Assembly (NCBI GenBank): GCA_029856525.1
Contig: JAHQXC010000046.1
Location: forward strand, 1-10,531
From: Candidatus Odinarchaeia archaeon
GTDB lineage: Archaea > Asgardarchaeota > Odinarchaeia > Odinarchaeales > Odinarchaeaceae
DNA: 10,531 nucleotides
Reading direction: 5' to 3'
This document shows, one piece after another, positions 4,711 to 10,531 of the stretch. The notes beneath the pieces were generated by a model, which saw nothing but the letters and a program-made list of their open reading frames with translations, was not told where the DNA came from and did not search any database. The first letter of the stretch is position 1, and each line of letters opens with the position of its first letter. Made by a program: the position numbers and the translations under genes.

Positions 4711-6129
4711 TTAGTTAGATAAATTAAACTCATCGTGGATTGCTTGAAGCGCTTGTGAGATATCTCTTCTAGGTATAACCATTGAAATATTCATTTCGCT
4801 GCTACCCTGAGCTATAGCTATGATATTTATATTTTTTTCAGCGAGTGCTTTGAATACTCTCGCAGCGATTCCGGGTGTGTTAAGCATACCCGCGCCTACA
4901 ACTGCTATGAGGCTTACATCATTCATTGCGTTTATCTTAATCCACCTGCGCCCGAAGAAATCTGATGCTTTTAAAACCTCTTCAGATCTCTCTTTATCAG
5001 CCTGGTCTACAACTAAAGTTATATTATTCTCAGATGAGGCTTGGCTGATCATAATTATATTAATATTATTGTTTCCTAGAATTTCAAACAGCTTAGCCGC
5101 GGTTCCTGGAAGAGACACCATTGCAGCCCCTTCCACGGTTATTAAAGCCACATCTTCTTTAGCTGTTAAAGCTTTAACAATGTCTTTTTTAACCTGTTGC
5201 TCGGTTGTGAAAGTAGTGTAATCAGCGTTTAAAGGCTTGGAGAAGTTACGGATCTCTAAGGGGATTTTCTTCTCTTCGAGTGGTATAAGACACATAGGGT
5301 GTATTATTTTAGAGCCGAAGAAAGCTAATTCTTTAGCCTCCTTGTAGGAGATTGTCTTTATAAGCTTCGCGTTTGGAACATACTTAGGGTTAGCTGTTAG
5401 AAGACCGTCTACATCCTTCCAGAGTATCACCTTCGTATGCTTAAAGGAGTCTACAATACTATACGCTATTAGAGTTGCAGTGAAATCACTGCCCCCTCTT
5501 CCAAGTGTTGTTACGAAACCGTCCTCGCTTCTAGCTAGAAAACCTGTGATTACAGGGATCTCCCTGTTTCTTAAAACTGGAACTATCTGGGTTTCTATAA
5601 GTTTCTTCGTTTTATCAAGTTTAGGCAGCGCATTAGTATAATTGTTATCTGTTACTATCAGGTTATCCGCTTGGAAGAATCTTACAGCGTATCCTTTAGA
5701 CTTTAAGTAATAGTATAGGATTGAAGTTGAGAAGCGTTCGCCGAATGCTATAACTTGGTCTGTAAGCTGAGGACTGATCGAGCATAAATCATAGACTTTA
5801 GTTAAAACCTCTTTTAACTGGGCGGCTAAATCTGAGATGAAAGATGAGGCTAAACTGAGATTCTCAGAGTCTTTTATTATTTCGACAGCTATTTTCAAAT
5901 GCATGTCTTGAAGTTTTTTAACCACTTCACCTGGTTCCGTAGCATGAGCGTTACATTCTCGCATGAATTTTATAAGCTGGTTTGTAACCCCTTGTAGAGC
6001 TGAGGCTACCAGTACTAAGCCGCCTTTTTTATAATTTTCTATAATAGCGAGTATTTTATCAAAGCTTCTCTCATCTACTAAGCAGCTTCCACCCAGCTTA
6101 TGCACTGTTACCTCGGCGGGCTCGCTCAT
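4711..6129 (-). CDS. lysC: Aspartate kinase, monofunctional, with two C-terminal ACT domains
   Basis: Motifs: HKLGGS, TTLGRGGSDFTA, WKDVDGLLTANP, ISYKEAKELAFFGSKIIHP; ACT repeats PGTAAKLFEILGNNNINI..ISQASSE and PGIAARVFKALAEKNINIIAIAQGSSE. GCGTGAT SD-like site upstream. Confidence 0.95.
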   Translation of the reverse strand: MSEPAEVTVHKLGGSCLVDERSFDKILAIIENYKKGGLVLVASALQGVTNQLIKFMRECNAHATEPGEVVKKLQDMHLKIAVEIIKDSENLSLASSFISDLAAQLKEVLTKVYDLCSISPQLTDQVIAFGERFSTSILYYYLKSKGYAVRFFQADNLIVTDNNYTNALPKLDKTKKLIETQIVPVLRNREIPVITGFLARSEDGFVTTLGRGGSDFTATLIAYSIVDSFKHTKVILWKDVDGLLTANPKYVPNAKLIKTISYKEAKELAFFGSKIIHPMCLIPLEEKKIPLEIRNFSKPLNADYTTFTTEQQVKKDIVKALTAKEDVALITVEGAAMVSLPGTAAKLFEILGNNNINIIMISQASSENNITLVVDQADKERSEEVLKASDFFGRRWIKINAMNDVSLIAVVGAGMLNTPGIAARVFKALAEKNINIIAIAQGSSEMNISMVIPRRDISQALQAIHDEFNLSN

Positions 6130-6142
6130 ATAATCACGCCTT

Positions 6143-6148
6143 AAAAAA
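6143..6148 (-). terminator. Candidate oligo-T (T6) terminator after the tRNA
   Basis: TTTTTT on the minus strand about 14 nt after the encoded CCA. Confidence 0.4.
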
Positions 6149-6193
6149 CGGTTACGGTTGAATGGTGGGAGCGATGGGATTCGGACCCATGAC

Positions 6194-6213
6194 CTCCGGT
6201 TTACATGTTTAAT
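6194..6213 (-). other. tRNA intron 3 (20 nt, variable loop, ~45/46)
   Basis: A 20-nt insert is needed to restore the perfect anticodon stem. BHB: CCGG(40-43):CCGG central helix, bulges AAA and AGG, closed by G39.U47 and two U-A pairs. The exact position is ambiguous from sequence alone because CCGGA is duplicated. Confidence 0.7.
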
Positions 6214-6221
6214 TTCCGGCT

Positions 6222-6256
6222 TTCTCAGAGGATTGCTCTTGTTACGAGCGCGGTCG
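6222..6256 (-). other. tRNA intron 2 (35 nt, canonical 37/38)
   Basis: Textbook BHB: C32-U33-U34-A35 pairs with intron UGAG, bulges UA|C and AA|A, outer helix is the anticodon stem. Internal GCUC/GAGC hairpin. Confidence 0.88.
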
Positions 6257-6273
6257 TATAAGGCCGGCGCTCT

Positions 6274-6288
6274 TTCTGGATGCAGTTT
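6274..6288 (-). other. tRNA intron 1 (15 nt, D-loop, 20a/21)
   Basis: CUGG:CCAG central helix, bulges UU|A and AA|A, closed by C16-G22 and an A-U pair. Confidence 0.8.
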
Positions 6289-6342
6289 AACCAGGCTGAG
6301 CTACGCTCCCACACCGTACCTACTTTAATGGTTATCTAAACA

Positions 6343-6353
6343 TTTTTTAAATA
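6343..6353 (-). promoter_or_regulatory. Candidate TATA box for the tRNA
   Basis: TATTTAAAAAA on the minus strand, about 33-43 nt upstream of tRNA position 1, which would allow a short 5' leader. Confidence 0.45.
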
Positions 6354-6363
6354 TTTAGGTATA

Positions 6364-9321
6364 TTAATCTGATCTTTTGAAGAGAACAGTCACTTTTTCA
6401 CCGCTTATATTAAATTCGCTGATCGTATAATTTTCAACATTATTTTCAAATTCACTTAACAGTTTTAGAGATGAGGCGTTCACTTTAGAGAGCAATAGGT
6501 CTTGGAGATCTTTAACAGATTTGCTTATAAGGTTGCTTTTAGTAATTATTTGAAGATTTATTTTTTCACTGACATGGTAATTATTCTGTTTCCGAGCGAA
6601 CTGTATCCTTCTTATAAGCTCTCTTAATATTCGCTCCTCGACAAGCTGCTCATCCTCGCTTAAATCTAAGAAGATCTTGTATTCCTTTAACTCTTTGAAT
6701 TTTAACCCTTGATCTACTGGTGTTTCAGTTGAAACCTCTACTTGCTTAACATTAGCCATGGATTCTATTATAGATGTTATCTCTTCACTAAGCTTAATAT
6801 TAGAGGATACTATAATGAGTTTTTTACAAGGCCATCTTAATTTCACATTATTCTCTTGCCTTAAGGCGAGAGTGGCTTCTATGATCTCTCTAGCATTCTC
6901 CATTTCAGCTTCAAGATTGCGATCAACCATTTTTTCATCTACATTAGGCCAGCTAGTAAGGTGAACGCTTTCAGGGGCTTCAGCGTTCACGCTTTTAACG
7001 AAGTATTTGTATATGTAATCTGTTATGAAGGGGGTTATCGGAGCCATAATTCTAAGCAGACGCTCTAACACATAATATAAAGTGGATAAAGCCGCGTGCT
7101 TATCTTCAAGGTTATCCTGAGATGTAATCCGGTCGCGGATGATTTTAATATATAAGCGGCTTAAATCCTCTGTGATAAATTGTTCTAGTAATCTAGGCGC
7201 TTGGGGTATGTTGTAATCTTTGAAAAGATCATTTAACTTTTTAATTAAACTGTTTAACTTAGATATAATCCATTTATCCTCTAATCTTAAATCTGATAAG
7301 TCGAGTTTATCTGAAGGCTTGAACCCCTCTATTTTCATAAAGGTTGAAGCGTAAACGTATATATTATAGAAGATGTTGAGAACTTTCTCAGTGTCCTCTA
7401 TTTCCTTCCAGCCGAATTTCATATCTAAACCGGGTTCTGAGCAGCCTACACTGTAGAATCTGAAAGTATCCACCCCATACTTCTCTGTAACCACCTCCGG
7501 TAGAATAATGTTTCCAAGAGATTTACTCATCGGCCTACCTTCAGGATCGTTTACGAAACCGTGCATGTAAACTGCTTTATACGGGCACTTGTGGAAGGCT
7601 GCGGCTCCGAGACACATCATCGTGTTAAACCAGCCTCTTATCTGATCTTTACCTTCAAGAACGAGATCTGCACTACTCCAATCCTCGAATACCGGTTTAC
7701 CTAGCATAACAGGGGTTGAAGCCCACACCACTGAGCCGCTGTCAACCCACACATCTAAAACATCTTGAACTCTTTTAAACCAGCCTCCGCATTTACAAAC
7801 CCATTTAAATTCATCCACCCACGGTCGATGTAAATCATCTACTTTACGATTAGTTTTATTCTCCAACTCTTTTATCGAACCTATAACCTCTATAGCCCCG
7901 CATTTATCACAAACCCATATTGGGAGAGGTGTGCCCCAAAATCTTTGCCTTGAAATACACCAGTCTTGAACACTCTCAAGCCATTTATCAAACCAAGGGT
8001 TACCAGCCCACTTAGGAGTCCAGTTAACTTTAGAGTTTAAAAGTCTCATCTCATCTGAAAGCTTAGAAACGTTGATAAACCATTGTTCAACTGCACGGTA
8101 GATTAAAGGAGTCTTACACCTCCAGCAGTGAGGGTATTCATGCTCCACTTCCCCTTCGTATAATAAGAGGTTTTTACGCTTCAAATCCTTTAAAACTTCA
8201 AGGCTGGCATCCTTCACATGCATTCCAGCATACTTACCAGCTTCAGCCGTCATCCTACCTGATTCATCCACAGGGGAGAAAGCGGGTAAACCGTATTTTA
8301 AACCTACGATGAAGTCTTCTGGGCCGTGTCCTGGAGCTGTGTGGACGCAACCTGTACCCTGCTCTAAAGTCACATACTCATCGCTTAAGATTACTTTATG
8401 AGCGTTACTATATTTTTCACCAAGCTCTTTTTGGAATGGAACCTCCTCTAATAGACAGTGAATATAGGATAATCCCTCCAGTTTCTCACCGGGAATCTCC
8501 TCTATGATTTCGAAGCTTTTCCCTAGAAGGCCTTGGATAATCGAAACCGCCATTCCTTTAGCTAGAATCCAGATTTCATCTTCAACTTTAGCTCTCACAT
8601 AAGTATAGAATGGGTTAACCATAACAGCTAGATTAGCTGGCAGAGTCCAGGGTGTGGTGGTCCAGATCAGTATATACTCGTTTCCTCCTCCGGTTAGTTT
8701 GAATTTAACGAAAATAGATTTATCAGAGACATTCTTATACTCGTATTCGTGTTTAGCTAACGCGGTTTCACAGCGAGGACAGAAAGCTAAAGGTCTTAAT
8801 CCTTTATACAATAGTTTGTTTTCATATATTTTTTTAAGCCCGAACCAGACGCCTTCAATATAATCGTTTGTAAGCGTCATGTAAGGTTTACTCCAGTTCA
8901 TCGCTACGCCGAGTTTTTTAAACTGTTCTGTCATTTTACTCAGATTTTTTAAAGCGAATTCACGGCATTTTAAAGTAAATTCCGCTATTCCACCGGTTTC
9001 AATACTCTTTTTATCTTTAATTTTTAATTCTCTCTCAACTTTAACTTCAATAGGTAAACCGTGCATGTCAAAACCTGGTGTGTCTATTACTCTATGCCCT
9101 GTCATCCGTTTATATCTTAAAATAACATCCTTCAATATTTTATTCCAAGCGGTTCCTAAGTGAATGACGCCTGTGGTATATGGAGGGCCGTCTATAAAAA
9201 GGAATTCAGGGCGATTCTCTACTAGAGCAGTCATTTTCTCATATATTTTGCTAGCCTCCCAGAAATCGAATACCTCCTGTTCAGCTGATTTTCTAGAATA
9301 TACTTTCGGAAGCTCCTCCAT
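6364..9321 (-). CDS. ileS: Isoleucyl-tRNA synthetase (archaeal type)
   Basis: Motifs: DGPPYTTGVIHLGTAWNKILKD (HIGH variant), GFDMHGLPIE, editing domain WTTTPWTLPAN and GTGCVHTAPGHGPED, DWCISRQRFWG, EGKDQIRGWF, and PMSKSLGN (KMSKS variant). GGTGA SD upstream. Confidence 0.97.
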   Translation of the reverse strand: MEELPKVYSRKSAEQEVFDFWEASKIYEKMTALVENRPEFLFIDGPPYTTGVIHLGTAWNKILKDVILRYKRMTGHRVIDTPGFDMHGLPIEVKVERELKIKDKKSIETGGIAEFTLKCREFALKNLSKMTEQFKKLGVAMNWSKPYMTLTNDYIEGVWFGLKKIYENKLLYKGLRPLAFCPRCETALAKHEYEYKNVSDKSIFVKFKLTGGGNEYILIWTTTPWTLPANLAVMVNPFYTYVRAKVEDEIWILAKGMAVSIIQGLLGKSFEIIEEIPGEKLEGLSYIHCLLEEVPFQKELGEKYSNAHKVILSDEYVTLEQGTGCVHTAPGHGPEDFIVGLKYGLPAFSPVDESGRMTAEAGKYAGMHVKDASLEVLKDLKRKNLLLYEGEVEHEYPHCWRCKTPLIYRAVEQWFINVSKLSDEMRLLNSKVNWTPKWAGNPWFDKWLESVQDWCISRQRFWGTPLPIWVCDKCGAIEVIGSIKELENKTNRKVDDLHRPWVDEFKWVCKCGGWFKRVQDVLDVWVDSGSVVWASTPVMLGKPVFEDWSSADLVLEGKDQIRGWFNTMMCLGAAAFHKCPYKAVYMHGFVNDPEGRPMSKSLGNIILPEVVTEKYGVDTFRFYSVGCSEPGLDMKFGWKEIEDTEKVLNIFYNIYVYASTFMKIEGFKPSDKLDLSDLRLEDKWIISKLNSLIKKLNDLFKDYNIPQAPRLLEQFITEDLSRLYIKIIRDRITSQDNLEDKHAALSTLYYVLERLLRIMAPITPFITDYIYKYFVKSVNAEAPESVHLTSWPNVDEKMVDRNLEAEMENAREIIEATLALRQENNVKLRWPCKKLIIVSSNIKLSEEITSIIESMANVKQVEVSTETPVDQGLKFKELKEYKIFLDLSEDEQLVEERILRELIRRIQFARKQNNYHVSEKINLQIITKSNLISKSVKDLQDLLLSKVNASSLKLLSEFENNVENYTISEFNISGEKVTVLFKRSD

Positions 9322-9474: not shown

Positions 9475-10531
9475 ATGCGGCGCATCATCCTTATAGCATT
9501 TATATTATTATCTAGTTTGATTGTAAGCCCAAATATTATCTCAGCCTCCCAGCAGCCTGCAATAATCTCAGAGATATCTGAAGCGAACATTCAATGGATT
9601 TTAAATAATCTAACAAGTTTCCAAACTAGACGCGCAGGAACTGTTGAATGCAATATGAGCGCTGAATACATCTACAATTATTTGAAGGCGATTAATATCA
9701 GCGTAGACTATGAGTTTTTTAACACTCCTAGTGGAGTGTTAGCCAATGTAGTTGCTGATATAACAGGTTCCAGCTTGAAAGAGAATTATGTGATTATAGG
9801 AGCTCACTATGATTCTATAAGTAGCAGTGGAAACGCTCCTGGAGCTGTTGACAACGCGGCAGCTGTAGCCGTATTAATGGAGTTAGCTAGAGTGTTATCT
9901 AATCACAGCCTATCTAGAAGCGTTAAAATTCTATTTTTCAGCGGAGAGGAGATCGGTAGATACGGGTCTTTAAACTGGGTGAGTAAAAATTACGAGATAA
10001 GATGGAATCTGACCGCTACACTCATACTTGACATGGTCGCTTACGGTAACAGTCTAGTTATAGATTATAATAGTGTCTCTAAACCTTTAGCTGACTACAT
10101 ATTCGAGAAAACCAGTTTTAAAAACTATTTGAGCGTTGAAGAGAATAATTATTTAAGCGATCATCAAAGCTTCTGGTCTGCGAATATACCAGCAGTATTA
10201 ATACACCAGAATAACCCGTTAGAGTATCCTTACTATCACACATCTGAGGATACTGTGGATAAAGTGAACTTTAAACTATTAGCTTTAACAGCCTCATTAA
10301 CTCTGGAAGCTGTCTACTTTCTAGCTACAGACCCAAGCTTAGAGAACCTATATTATAAAGCGAATCCTATTTATCTTATTATACTTATAGTTTTACCTAT
10401 AGTCTTTTTAACATGTTTAGGGTTAGTAGTGAGCTACTCCTCGACTAAAGTCGGGAGCTTCCAGCGTTCGTCTGAGGCTTTACGCCTTCAGTTACACGTG
10501 CTGGTTCGCGGGGCTCACAGCTCCGCCATCC
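9475..10531 (+). CDS. M28-family zinc aminopeptidase with signal peptide and C-terminal TM anchor; no stop in the window, runs into an IS end
   Basis: Manually translated from ATG 9475: MRRIILIAFILLSSLIVSPNIISA... Motifs GAHYDS, GAVDNAAAV, FSGEEIG, LDMV, SDH and YHTSED. TM helix IYLIILIVLPIVFLTCLGLV ends at 10428. Five N-X-S/T sequons. Confidence 0.9.
   Translation, partial: MRRIILIAFILLSSLIVSPNIISASQQPAIISEISEANIQWILNNLTSFQTRRAGTVECNMSAEYIYNYLKAINISVDYEFFNTPSGVLANVVADITGSSLKENYVIIGAHYDSISSSGNAPGAVDNAAAVAVLMELARVLSNHSLSRSVKILFFSGEEIGRYGSLNWVSKNYEIRWNLTATLILDMVAYGNSLVIDYNSVSKPLADYIFEKTSFKNYLSVEENNYLSDHQSFWSANIPAVLIHQNNPLEYPYYHTSEDTVDKVNFKLLALTASLTLEAVYFLATDPSLENLYYKANPIYLIILIVLPIVFLTCLGLVVSYSSTKVGSFQRSSEALRLQLHVLVRGAHSSAI
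10429..10531 (-). mobile_element. Right end / omegaRNA 3' region of an IS200/IS605- (or IS607-) family tnpB element; the rest lies beyond the window
   Basis: The minus strand reads ...CTGAAGGC-GTAAA-GCCTCAG ACGAACGCT GGAAG CTCCCGAC-TTTA-GTCGAGGAG TAGCTCAC. This shows a subterminal hairpin, GAAG at its foot, a TCAC end, and an upstream GTGAGC (10513-18) complementary to the terminal GCTCAC. GC content jumps abruptly relative to the host gene. Confidence 0.75.

What the first reader, a model, noticed from the sequence alone, without database searches (positions are those of the whole stretch)
6222..6262. Rare tRNA-Ile(UAU) anticodon with a trace of C34 ancestry in its intron
Seen: BHB geometry fixes the anticodon loop as CU-UAU-AA. 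In the splice helix U34 faces a G as a wobble; C34 would make CUCA:UGAG perfect. ATA is heavily used here (13 of 26 Ile codons in ORF 1-1070 by my count). Established: most archaea read AUA with tRNA-Ile(CAU) modified to agmatidine by TiaS; UAU anticodons are exceptions (Nanoarchaeum and Korarchaeum, as I recall). Inference: an independent C34>U switch, possibly with loss of tiaS and another way to avoid misreading AUG.
Basis: partly seen in the sequence, partly recalled or inferred. Interest (0 to 1): 0.75.

Follow-up and report, generated by a model that had tools for sequence, protein, structure and literature searches.

The report
Asgard tRNA-Ile(UAU) without TiaS
This is a real, three-intron isoleucine tRNA gene with the unusual anticodon UAU in an Odin-type Asgard archaeon that has no TiaS enzyme; the same arrangement is shared by about half of 400 sampled Asgard genomes, so it is an old lineage trait resembling the eukaryotic way of reading AUA, not a recent private mutation.

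Summary
A tRNA gene lies on the minus strand (6310..6166, CCA encoded) with three bulge-helix-bulge introns. The canonical 37/38 intron (6256..6222) fixes the anticodon loop as CU-UAU-AA, and U34 faces a G in the 4-bp splice helix. The gene sits 53 nt downstream of IleRS. ATA makes up 50% of Ile codons and is read as Ile.

TiaS was not found in this genome, in three congeners (one closed) or in the sister family. Record titles place the genus in Candidatus Odinarchaeota.

- The UAU/no-TiaS state is not an independent switch. Among 400 Asgard genomes, 12 families (194 genomes plus this one) have no TiaS hit. I confirmed tRNA-Ile(UAU) genes in 10 of those 12 families and in none of eight pattern hits inspected from TiaS-positive families.
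- The U34·G wobble is not a usable relic of C34. Six other families have A opposite U34, and G·U pairs occur in 19 of 28 predicted splice helices here, including U34·G in tRNA-Thr(UGU).

The system is of a known kind (Nanoarchaeum, Korarchaeum, eukaryotes). I found no paper reporting it for Asgard archaea. How AUG misreading is avoided is unknown; Elp3 is present.

The parts
6166..6310 (-). Pre-tRNA-Ile(UAU) gene, 145 nt including discriminator A73. The mature form is 75 nt plus CCA.
   Evidence: RF00005 43.8 bits. Cloverleaf solution with all 21 stem pairs formed. 91-92% identical orthologues in three congeners.
6163..6165 (-). Genomically encoded 3' CCA.
   Evidence: Sequence. 28 of 30 tRNAs found by my T-arm scan in this genome also encode CCA.
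6258..6260 (-). Anticodon U34-A35-U36.
   Evidence: Position fixed by the anticodon stem CCGGC/GCCGG and the BHB geometry. Invariant in all relatives and metagenome contigs.
6274..6288 (-). Intron 1, 15 nt, in the D-loop (about 20a/21). Central helix CUGG:CCAG.
   Evidence: The loop bases are the only variable D-region columns in alignment A1 and.
6222..6256 (-). Intron 2, 35 nt, at the canonical 37/38 position. Carries UGAG (6227..6224), which pairs with C32-A35; G at 6226 faces U34.
   Evidence: The interior varies while the helix strands are conserved.
6214..6221 (-). Eight-nt micro-exon: A38, G39-G43, A44, A45.
   Evidence: Conserved in the genus except position 45, which is A/U, and G in the sister family.
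6194..6213 (-). Intron 3, 20 nt, at 45/46. Its central helix CCGG:CCGG re-uses the 3' strand of the anticodon stem, so it cannot fold at the same time as the intron 2 motif.
   Evidence: Variable. The sister family has an intron at the same site.
6364..9321 (-). Isoleucyl-tRNA synthetase gene, ending 53 nt upstream of the tRNA.
   Evidence: TIGR00392 ileS 939 bits against a cut-off of 621. Pfam class I synthetase plus Anticodon_1. The linkage is conserved in G001-G003, G005 and G037.
6343..6351 (-). A/T-rich TTTAAAAAA box 33-41 nt upstream of the tRNA 5' end; possible archaeal TATA element (inference only).
   Evidence: Read from the sequence; not tested.
6143..6148 (-). T6 run 15 nt after the CCA; likely archaeal oligo-T terminator (inference).
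   Evidence: Read from the sequence.

Best explanation
The feature is the single gene for tRNA-Ile(UAU) of an Odinarchaeia (Asgard) archaeon. Its transcript carries three protein-spliced BHB introns: D-loop, 37/38 and 45/46. After cleavage by the two-subunit splicing endonuclease and ligation by RtcB (inferred), the 75-nt tRNA with anticodon UAU, A37 and A73 is charged by the IleRS encoded just upstream (inferred). It reads AUA, the commonest Ile codon here. The organism has no TiaS and no detectable tRNA-Ile2(CAU), so AUA decoding does not use agmatidine. The arrangement is not private to this genome. It is the rule in Odinarchaeales and in at least four other TiaS-free Asgard classes, whose UAU tRNAs share the anticodon arm and the 37/38 intron. 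It is therefore an old Asgard trait. The U34·G wobble in the splice helix is ordinary neutral variation. How U34 is kept from reading AUG is not known; candidates are pseudouridine as in eukaryotes, an unmodified U as in Mycoplasma mobile, or exclusion from Elp3.
For: Shown for the gene:
- tRNA model match and cloverleaf.
- Exons invariant and introns variable in four species and in three further metagenomes.
- Single copy in each genome of the genus.
- The unusual T-loop UCC and the acceptor stem GGGA-CG are shared only with tRNA-Ile(GAU) of the same genome.
- IleRS lies immediately upstream, and this linkage is conserved in two classes.

Shown for decoding:
- ATA is 50.4% of Ile codons, 46.6 per 1000 codons.
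- ATA positions in IleRS align to I/L/V like ATT and ATC, and to M in only 5% of cases, against 28% for ATG.

Shown for TiaS:
- No PF08489 hit in the own genome (93% complete), in three congeners including a one-contig genome, or in three genomes of the sister family.
- A complete Asgard TiaS protein finds nothing either.
- Across the phylum, 0 hits in 194 genomes of 12 families against 184 of 205 in the other families. One whole class scores 0/121 and another 0/19.

Shown for distribution and machinery:
- tRNA-Ile(UAU) genes were inspected in f1, f2, f9, f12, f13, f16, f27, f28 and f29.
- Two EndA-domain genes, RtcB and Elp3 are present.
- The 21-mer spanning the anticodon arm and the start of the intron hits only Odinarchaeota and Promethearchaeota records among 185,579 species genomes.
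Against: - No RNA data: splicing, charging and the state of U34 are all inferred.
- The tRNA inventory of this 127-contig genome is incomplete. I found about 41 tRNAs, and multi-intron genes escape the scanners, so a third CAU tRNA cannot be strictly excluded.
- TiaS absence rests on homology searches; a non-homologous C34 modifier would not be seen.
- UAU genes were confirmed in only one to four genomes per family, and only eight pattern hits from TiaS-positive families were inspected. The reciprocal claim, that TiaS-positive genomes lack UAU, is therefore weakly sampled.
- In haloarchaea a U34 version of tRNA-Ile binds AUG as well (PMC3895270). A protective mechanism must exist here and I could not identify one.
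Confidence: 0.85

Rival explanations
1. One reading: a recent, lineage-specific C34-to-U34 mutation of a tRNA-Ile2(CAU), with the intron G opposite position 34 kept as a relic of the former C-G pair, accompanied by loss of tiaS.
For: A C-to-U change would leave exactly a G·U pair. The G is conserved in all four species of the genus and in G037 of another class. The anticodon stem (CCGGC) and D-arm resemble the elongator tRNA-Met(CAU) of the same genome more than tRNA-Ile(GAU).
Against: UAU and the lack of TiaS are shared by the sister family and at least four other classes. Relatives in f2, f9, f12, f16, f28 and f29 have A opposite U34. G·U pairs occur in 19 of 28 predicted central helices here, including U34·G in tRNA-Thr(UGU). 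No CAU version of the arm exists in 400 Asgard genomes.
Confidence: 0.07
2. A deep-origin variant: the UAU tRNA arose once, by C34-to-U34 change in an ancestral Asgard tRNA-Ile2(CAU), before the TiaS-free classes diverged, and TiaS was then lost. Alternatively it arose by duplication of tRNA-Ile(GAU), as proposed for Korarchaeum.
For: The anticodon arm GCGCCGGCCUUAUA, the 37/38 intron and, in two classes, the IleRS linkage are shared across classes, which suggests one origin. The acceptor stem and T-loop resemble tRNA-Ile(GAU), while the anticodon arm resembles tRNA-Met. PMC6000648 derives the Korarchaeum UAU gene from its GAU paralogue.
Against: I could not build a class-level tree, so one origin and several origins cannot be told apart. 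The mosaic similarity gives no clear donor. The tRNA-Ile2(CAU) genes of TiaS-positive Asgards were not retrieved for comparison.
Confidence: 0.35
3. The gene is a decaying or non-functional tRNA copy, and AUA is read by another undetected tRNA, such as a multi-intron tRNA-Ile2(CAU) modified by an unknown enzyme.
For: Standard finders miss many tRNAs in this genome, so an undetected gene is conceivable. The T-loop has C55 where nearly all tRNAs have U.
Against: Every exon base is conserved while the introns vary. CCA, a T-run and an A/T box are present. C55 is shared with the tRNA-Ile(GAU) of the same genome. AUA accounts for 4.7% of all codons. Orthologues exist in at least five classes.
Confidence: 0.04
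4. AUA is reassigned to Met, as in many mitochondria, and this is a Met-accepting tRNA that reads AUR.
For: A U34 anticodon UAU can pair with both AUA and AUG (PMC3895270).
Against: ATA codons of IleRS align to I 33%, L 16%, V 16% and M 5% in 80 homologues, like ATT and ATC. ATG aligns to M at 28%. The tRNA body shares features with tRNA-Ile(GAU), and separate initiator and elongator tRNA-Met genes exist.
Confidence: 0.02

Closest known systems
tRNA-Ile(UAU) ('tRNA-Ile3') of Nanoarchaeum equitans and Korarchaeum cryptofilum, the two archaea reported to lack TiaS and tRNA-Ile2(CAU) (PMC6000648; tRNAscan-SE 2.0 paper, 10.1101/614032; PMC3895270)
   Same: A genomic UAU anticodon, no TiaS, and AUA read as Ile. 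The Korarchaeum gene also carries an intron.
   Different: A different phylum (Asgard). There are three introns, two at non-canonical sites. The trait covers whole classes (hundreds of genomes) rather than single species. The gene is linked to IleRS. The anticodon arm is not a simple copy of the GAU paralogue, which is what was reported for Korarchaeum.
Eukaryotic cytoplasmic tRNA-Ile(UAU), anticodon pseudoU-A-pseudoU (as summarised in PMC3895270 and PMC8879553; that its pseudouridylation depends on the intron is from my own knowledge of yeast work)
   Same: UAU anticodon, an intron at 37/38 that pairs with the anticodon, no C34-modifying enzyme, and occurrence in the lineage most closely related to eukaryotes.
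   Different: The modification state is unknown here. The introns are BHB type, cut by archaeal endonuclease subunits. Eukaryotes also use IAU for AUA. Homology between the Asgard and eukaryotic genes was not tested.
Archaeal TiaS / agmatidine system: tRNA-Ile2(CAU) plus TiaS
   Same: Solves the same problem of reading AUA but not AUG. It is present in the other half of Asgard genomes (184 of 400).
   Different: Neither the enzyme nor a CAU-type tRNA-Ile2 was found in this genome or its order.
Mycoplasma mobile and Bacillus subtilis tilS-bypass tRNA-Ile(UAU) with unmodified U34 (PMC3575796, PMC3919564)
   Same: Loss of the C34-modifying enzyme is compensated by a UAU anticodon.
   Different: These are bacterial, have no introns, and occur in isolated species or laboratory mutants.
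Multi-intron tRNA genes of Thermoproteales and of Asgard archaea (PMC11291895; bioRxiv 10.64898/2026.10.13.758758)
   Same: Several BHB introns at non-canonical positions, tiny exons, and overlapping motifs that imply ordered splicing.
   Different: Those papers do not mention Ile, UAU or TiaS.

Membership tests
tRNA (Rfam RF00005) | Score above the curated gathering threshold and a complete cloverleaf. | tested here: met
   43.8 bits against 29. After intron removal all 21 stem pairs form, with U8, A14, GG in the D-loop, U33, A37 and A58 present.
Archaeal BHB (hBHBh') tRNA introns | Two 3-nt bulges separated by a 4-bp helix, with cleavage after the second bulge base on each strand. | tested here: met
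   All three introns have a 4/4-paired central helix in the right register. The 37/38 intron also has a 5-bp outer helix; the other two are relaxed forms with weak outer or inner helices.
Archaeal BHB (hBHBh') tRNA introns | Splicing endonuclease and RNA ligase encoded in the genome. | tested here: met
   Two PF01974 genes (C56, C61) and an RtcB match (C95). Actual cleavage was not tested.
TiaS-independent AUA decoding by tRNA-Ile(UAU) (Nanoarchaeum/Korarchaeum type) | A genomic tRNA gene with anticodon UAU and Ile-type body. | tested here: met
   Acceptor stem and T-loop are shared with tRNA-Ile(GAU).
TiaS-independent AUA decoding by tRNA-Ile(UAU) (Nanoarchaeum/Korarchaeum type) | No TiaS gene. 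| tested here: met
   PF08489 finds 0 hits in the own genome, three congeners (one closed) and three genomes of the sister family. Full-length TiaS protein finds 0 hits. The positive controls gave hits.
TiaS-independent AUA decoding by tRNA-Ile(UAU) (Nanoarchaeum/Korarchaeum type) | No tRNA-Ile2(CAU): only initiator and elongator tRNA-Met carry CAU. | tested here: inconclusive
   Only two CAU tRNAs were recognised (C11:9853-10077, C13:15336-15514). No CAU twin of the arm exists in 400 genomes. However, the inventory is incomplete and my CAU hairpin scan misses intron-split stems.
TiaS-independent AUA decoding by tRNA-Ile(UAU) (Nanoarchaeum/Korarchaeum type) | AUA is translated as Ile. | tested here: met
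   Residue profile at ATA codons of IleRS across 80 homologues.
TiaS-independent AUA decoding by tRNA-Ile(UAU) (Nanoarchaeum/Korarchaeum type) | Aminoacylation by IleRS. | not testable with these tools
   Only indirect support: A73, the UAU anticodon, and the adjacent ileS gene.
Eukaryote-type tRNA-Ile(pseudoU-A-pseudoU) | Pseudouridine at positions 34 and 36, made in an intron-dependent way. | not testable with these tools
   A 37/38 intron pairing with the anticodon is present. A single TruA-family gene occurs in TiaS-positive and TiaS-free Asgards alike, so gene content says nothing either way.
TiaS/agmatidine system | TiaS protein plus a tRNA-Ile2 with genomic CAU. | tested here: not met

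The most novel reading that the evidence does not exclude
Reading AUA with an intron-containing tRNA-Ile(UAU), without any C34-modifying enzyme, arose in Asgard archaea before eukaryotes did. On this reading the eukaryotic tRNA-Ile(UAU), with its conserved 37/38 intron and intron-guided protection of U34, descends from this Asgard gene rather than being a eukaryotic invention.
Probability: 0.2. Interest if true: 0.85.

Novelty: new member of a known kind. Interest (0 to 1): 0.58.

Why it matters
Reading AUA as Ile without misreading AUG as Ile is a classic problem. Bacteria solve it with lysidine, most archaea with agmatidine, and eukaryotes with inosine and pseudouridine. The papers I read list only two archaeal exceptions that use UAU, and treat use of UAU as a eukaryotic innovation (PMC8879553).

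Here the UAU solution, on an intron-bearing tRNA and without TiaS, is the norm in Odinarchaeia and in roughly half of 400 sampled Asgard genomes. In this organism it serves 4.7% of all codons. This gives a natural, phylum-wide contrast within the closest relatives of eukaryotes: TiaS-positive against TiaS-free classes.

Two questions become testable. When did the eukaryote-like mode arise? What protects U34 from pairing with G? The result also warns annotators: standard tRNA finders miss this gene, so AUA would look undecodable.

Tried and rejected
- ARAGORN without introns and Rfam at gathering thresholds found nothing in the window. The genome-wide RF00005 search lists 26 tRNAs but not this one.
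- The MFE fold of the whole precursor gives a non-tRNA structure and is not informative.
- A rival two-intron model, with one 55-nt intron at pre-tRNA positions 57-111, scores equally in this genome. I rejected it because A38-GCCGG and the UGAG strand are conserved, and because the sister family has no second CCGG to support it. It would keep UAU anyway.
- The 14-mer pattern with one mismatch across 400 genomes gave as many hits as its reversed control. Fourteen inspected one-mismatch hits were coding sequence (eight in TiaS-positive families, six in TiaS-free ones); five others and the exact G137 match proved to be tRNA genes, as did the three other exact matches fetched, all in f16. Two extra hits in the own genome (C118, C21) are coding sequence.
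- The CAU version of the arm gave 0 of 400.
- My CAU/TAT hairpin scan found only chance coding hits plus this gene. It misses tRNA-Met genes whose stems are split by introns, so it cannot prove that tRNA-Ile2 is absent.
- My intron solver could not resolve the four-intron tRNA-Met genes.
- IleRS homologue search: close relatives were withheld from the results, and the best hits (DPANN, Desulfurococcales, 40-48% identity) gave no taxonomy. The look-up of encoding contigs returned only an SRA contig.
- Sequencing runs: no RNA holder was listed, and only assembled contigs were available, so there is no evidence on expression or splicing.
- TruA/Pus1-family copy number does not differ between TiaS-free and TiaS-positive genomes.
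- Family names could not be obtained for most coded families, because record titles say only 'Promethearchaeota archaeon' or 'uncultured archaeon'.
- Literature: no paper holds both 'Asgard' and 'TiaS'. None of the listed Asgard papers mentions agmatidine.

Full report
**What is in the sequence**

The minus strand of window 6310..6166 matches the Rfam tRNA model at 43.8 bits against a gathering score of 29. The match appears only under permissive filters, because two long insertions break it. ARAGORN and the default Rfam run see nothing.

I enumerated all bulge-helix-bulge candidates, defined as a 4-bp helix flanked by two 3-nt bulges with cleavage after the second bulge base. Each spliced product was scored against a cloverleaf. 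The best solution removes three introns:
- pre-tRNA positions 23-37 (window 6288..6274), in the D-loop;
- positions 55-89 (window 6256..6222), at the canonical 37/38 site;
- positions 98-117 (window 6213..6194), at 45/46.

The mature tRNA reads GGGAGCG UA GCUC AGCCUGGUUA GAGC G CCGGC CUUAUAA GCCGG AAGUC AUGGG UCCGAAU CCCAU CGCUCCC A, and CCA is encoded.

The 37/38 motif is textbook.

**Is the gene real and correctly read?**

Three other species of the same genus carry the gene at 91-92% identity. In their alignment every exon column is identical except position 45. All other changes sit in the loops of the three introns.

Contigs from three further metagenomes (oil field and hot springs) span the gene. 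All 20 listed differences lie inside the three introns, and none lies at 6257..6262. This pattern supports the three-intron model and rules out a C/T error at 6260.

A rival model with one 55-nt intron scores equally in this genome. It does not explain why A38-GCCGG and UGAG are conserved, and it cannot be drawn in the sister family. It would leave UAU unchanged in any case.

The intron 3 helix (CCGG:CCGG) re-uses the 3' strand of the anticodon stem. The motifs of introns 2 and 3 therefore cannot fold at the same time, which implies stepwise splicing. That step is inferred.

**Identity as tRNA-Ile**

- The acceptor stem (GGGA-CG), the D-arm, A73 and an unusual T-loop UCC (C55 in place of U55) are shared with tRNA-Ile(GAU) of the same genome (C43:1187-1289). 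None of the other 28 tRNAs found by my scan has this T-loop.
- The gene lies 53 nt downstream of a 985-aa ORF that is isoleucyl-tRNA synthetase by NCBIfam TIGR00392 (939 bits, cut-off 621).
- This ileS-tRNA linkage is kept in the three congeners, in the sister family (G005) and in G037 of another class.
- ATA accounts for 50.4% of Ile codons in 585 long ORFs, which is 46.6 per 1000 codons and 2.4 times as frequent as ATG.
- ATA positions in the ileS gene align to I 33%, L 16%, V 16% and M 5% in 80 homologues. This matches the profile of ATT and ATC. ATG aligns to M at 28%. AUA is therefore read as Ile.

**TiaS and tRNA-Ile2**

The Pfam TiaS domain PF08489 finds nothing in this genome (93% complete), in three congeners (one a single contig, 98% complete) or in three genomes of the sister family. 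It does find hits in all four archaeal control genomes. A full-length TiaS from another Asgard genome, carrying all four TiaS Pfam domains, also finds nothing.

I recognised only two CAU tRNAs, both multi-intron. One is an initiator with an AGCGGGG acceptor stem (C11:9853-10077). The other is an elongator tRNA-Met (C13:15336-15514). My inventory of about 41 tRNAs is incomplete, so absence of tRNA-Ile2(CAU) is likely but not proven.

**Who is it, and how far does the trait reach?**

Earlier notes of this scan called the genome Odinarchaeia. I checked this independently. A 21-mer spanning the anticodon arm and the start of intron 2 matches only four records among 185,579 species genomes. Two are 'Candidatus Odinarchaeota archaeon' MAGs, which correspond to congeners G001 and G003. 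Two are 'Promethearchaeati/Promethearchaeota archaeon' records.

Across 400 Asgard genomes TiaS splits cleanly by family:
- There are 0 hits in 12 families, f1, f2, f9, f12, f13, f16 and f25-f30, which hold 194 genomes besides this one.
- There are 184 hits among the 205 genomes of the other families.
- One whole class (f9, f25-f27, f29, f30) scores 0 of 121.
- Family f12 is a class of its own and scores 0 of 19.

I inspected tRNA-Ile(UAU) genes in the following TiaS-free families:
- f2
- f13
- f9, four genomes
- f28 and f29
- f12 and f27
- f16, three genomes

Eight pattern hits from TiaS-positive families were all coding sequence, consistent with the reversed-pattern control. UAU with no TiaS is thus a shared state of several Asgard classes. 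It is not an independent event in this genome.

**The 'C34 relic'**

The base opposite U34 is G in the four species of this genus and in G037 (f13). It is A, a full Watson-Crick pair, in f2, f9, f12, f16, f28 and f29.

G·U pairs are also common in this genome's predicted splice helices. They occur in 19 of 28 helices and make up 24 of 112 pairs, and they include U34·G in tRNA-Thr(UGU). Those predictions come from my own solver, and only the canonical ones are secure.

No CAU version of the same arm exists in 400 Asgard genomes. The wobble pair is compatible with a C34 ancestor at some deep node, but it is not evidence for one.

The body is a mosaic. The acceptor stem and T-loop resemble tRNA-Ile(GAU), while the D-arm and anticodon stem resemble tRNA-Met. 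The donor gene therefore remains open.

**Mechanism**

Shown: the gene, its intron motifs, two endonuclease-domain genes and RtcB, the absence of TiaS, and AUA read as Ile.

Inferred: splicing at the predicted junctions, charging by IleRS, and decoding of AUA by U34.

Unknown: how AUG misreading is avoided. In haloarchaea a U34 mutant of tRNA-Ile acquires cnm5U and binds AUA, AUG and AUU (PMC3895270). This genome encodes Elp3 (752 bits), so the tRNA must either escape that pathway or carry something else. A TruA/Pus1-family gene is present once in both TiaS-free and TiaS-positive Asgards and so gives no clue.

**Comparison with what is known**

The closest known system is the tRNA-Ile(UAU) of Nanoarchaeum equitans and Korarchaeum cryptofilum. 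These were the only two of 167 and 217 archaeal genomes with this gene in two surveys (PMC6000648; 10.1101/614032). Functionally the system also parallels the eukaryotic tRNA-Ile(UAU) and the bacterial tilS-bypass cases (PMC3575796, PMC3919564).

I found no paper containing both 'Asgard' and 'TiaS'. The two papers on Asgard tRNA introns do not mention Ile or UAU. A 2022 review treats use of UAU as arising in eukaryotes (PMC8879553).

**Verdict**

This is a genuine, ordinary-looking member of a rare but known decoding system, found in a new and evolutionarily interesting phylum. The 'independent switch' and 'relic' inferences are not.

Noticed in passing
window 6166-9321 (-); L111, L116, L108-L110: The ileS gene is immediately followed by tRNA-Ile(UAU) on the same strand in this genus, in the sister family (G005) and in G037 of another Asgard class. 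This is not so in the f9 and f29 loci examined. It may be a conserved synthetase-tRNA unit.
   Followed up: partly
window 6178-6184 (-) and G000:C43:1187-1289 (-): Both tRNA-Ile genes of this genome have a T-loop UCCGAAU or UCCAAAU, with C where the near-universal U55 (pseudouridine 55) should be. The other 28 tRNAs scanned have UUC. The sister family has AUCGAAG and G037 has the normal UUCGAAU.
   Followed up: partly
G000:C13:15336-15514 (+) and G000:C11:9853-10077 (+): Elongator tRNA-Met (179 nt) and initiator tRNA-Met (225 nt) are heavily interrupted, including introns inside the anticodon stem and the T-loop. My intron solver could not resolve them. Elongator Met shares the D-arm and four of five anticodon-stem pairs with tRNA-Ile(UAU).
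   Followed up: partly
window 6214-6221 (-): An 8-nt micro-exon lies between introns 2 and 3. The intron 3 central helix re-uses the GCCGG strand needed for the intron 2 motif, which implies ordered splicing.
   Followed up: partly
G000:C95:1006-1164 (-): The RtcB ligase model matches only its first 50 positions, inside a 438-aa open frame. The gene may be divergent, split or interrupted.
   Followed up: no
G000, whole genome: 28 of 30 tRNA genes found by the T-arm scan encode their 3' CCA. The two tRNA-Arg genes (C61:10414-10488, C77:20609-20683) do not.
   Followed up: no
window 4711-6129 (-) and 9475-10530 (+): The flanking genes are an aspartate-kinase-like protein (AA_kinase plus two ACT domains) and an M28-family peptidase. 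There is no obvious functional tie to the tRNA.
   Followed up: no
L119 (G172, family f9): In this relative the anticodon-loop intron sits at 38/39 rather than 37/38. The central helix is UUAU:AUAA, so the whole anticodon is Watson-Crick paired with the intron.
   Followed up: no
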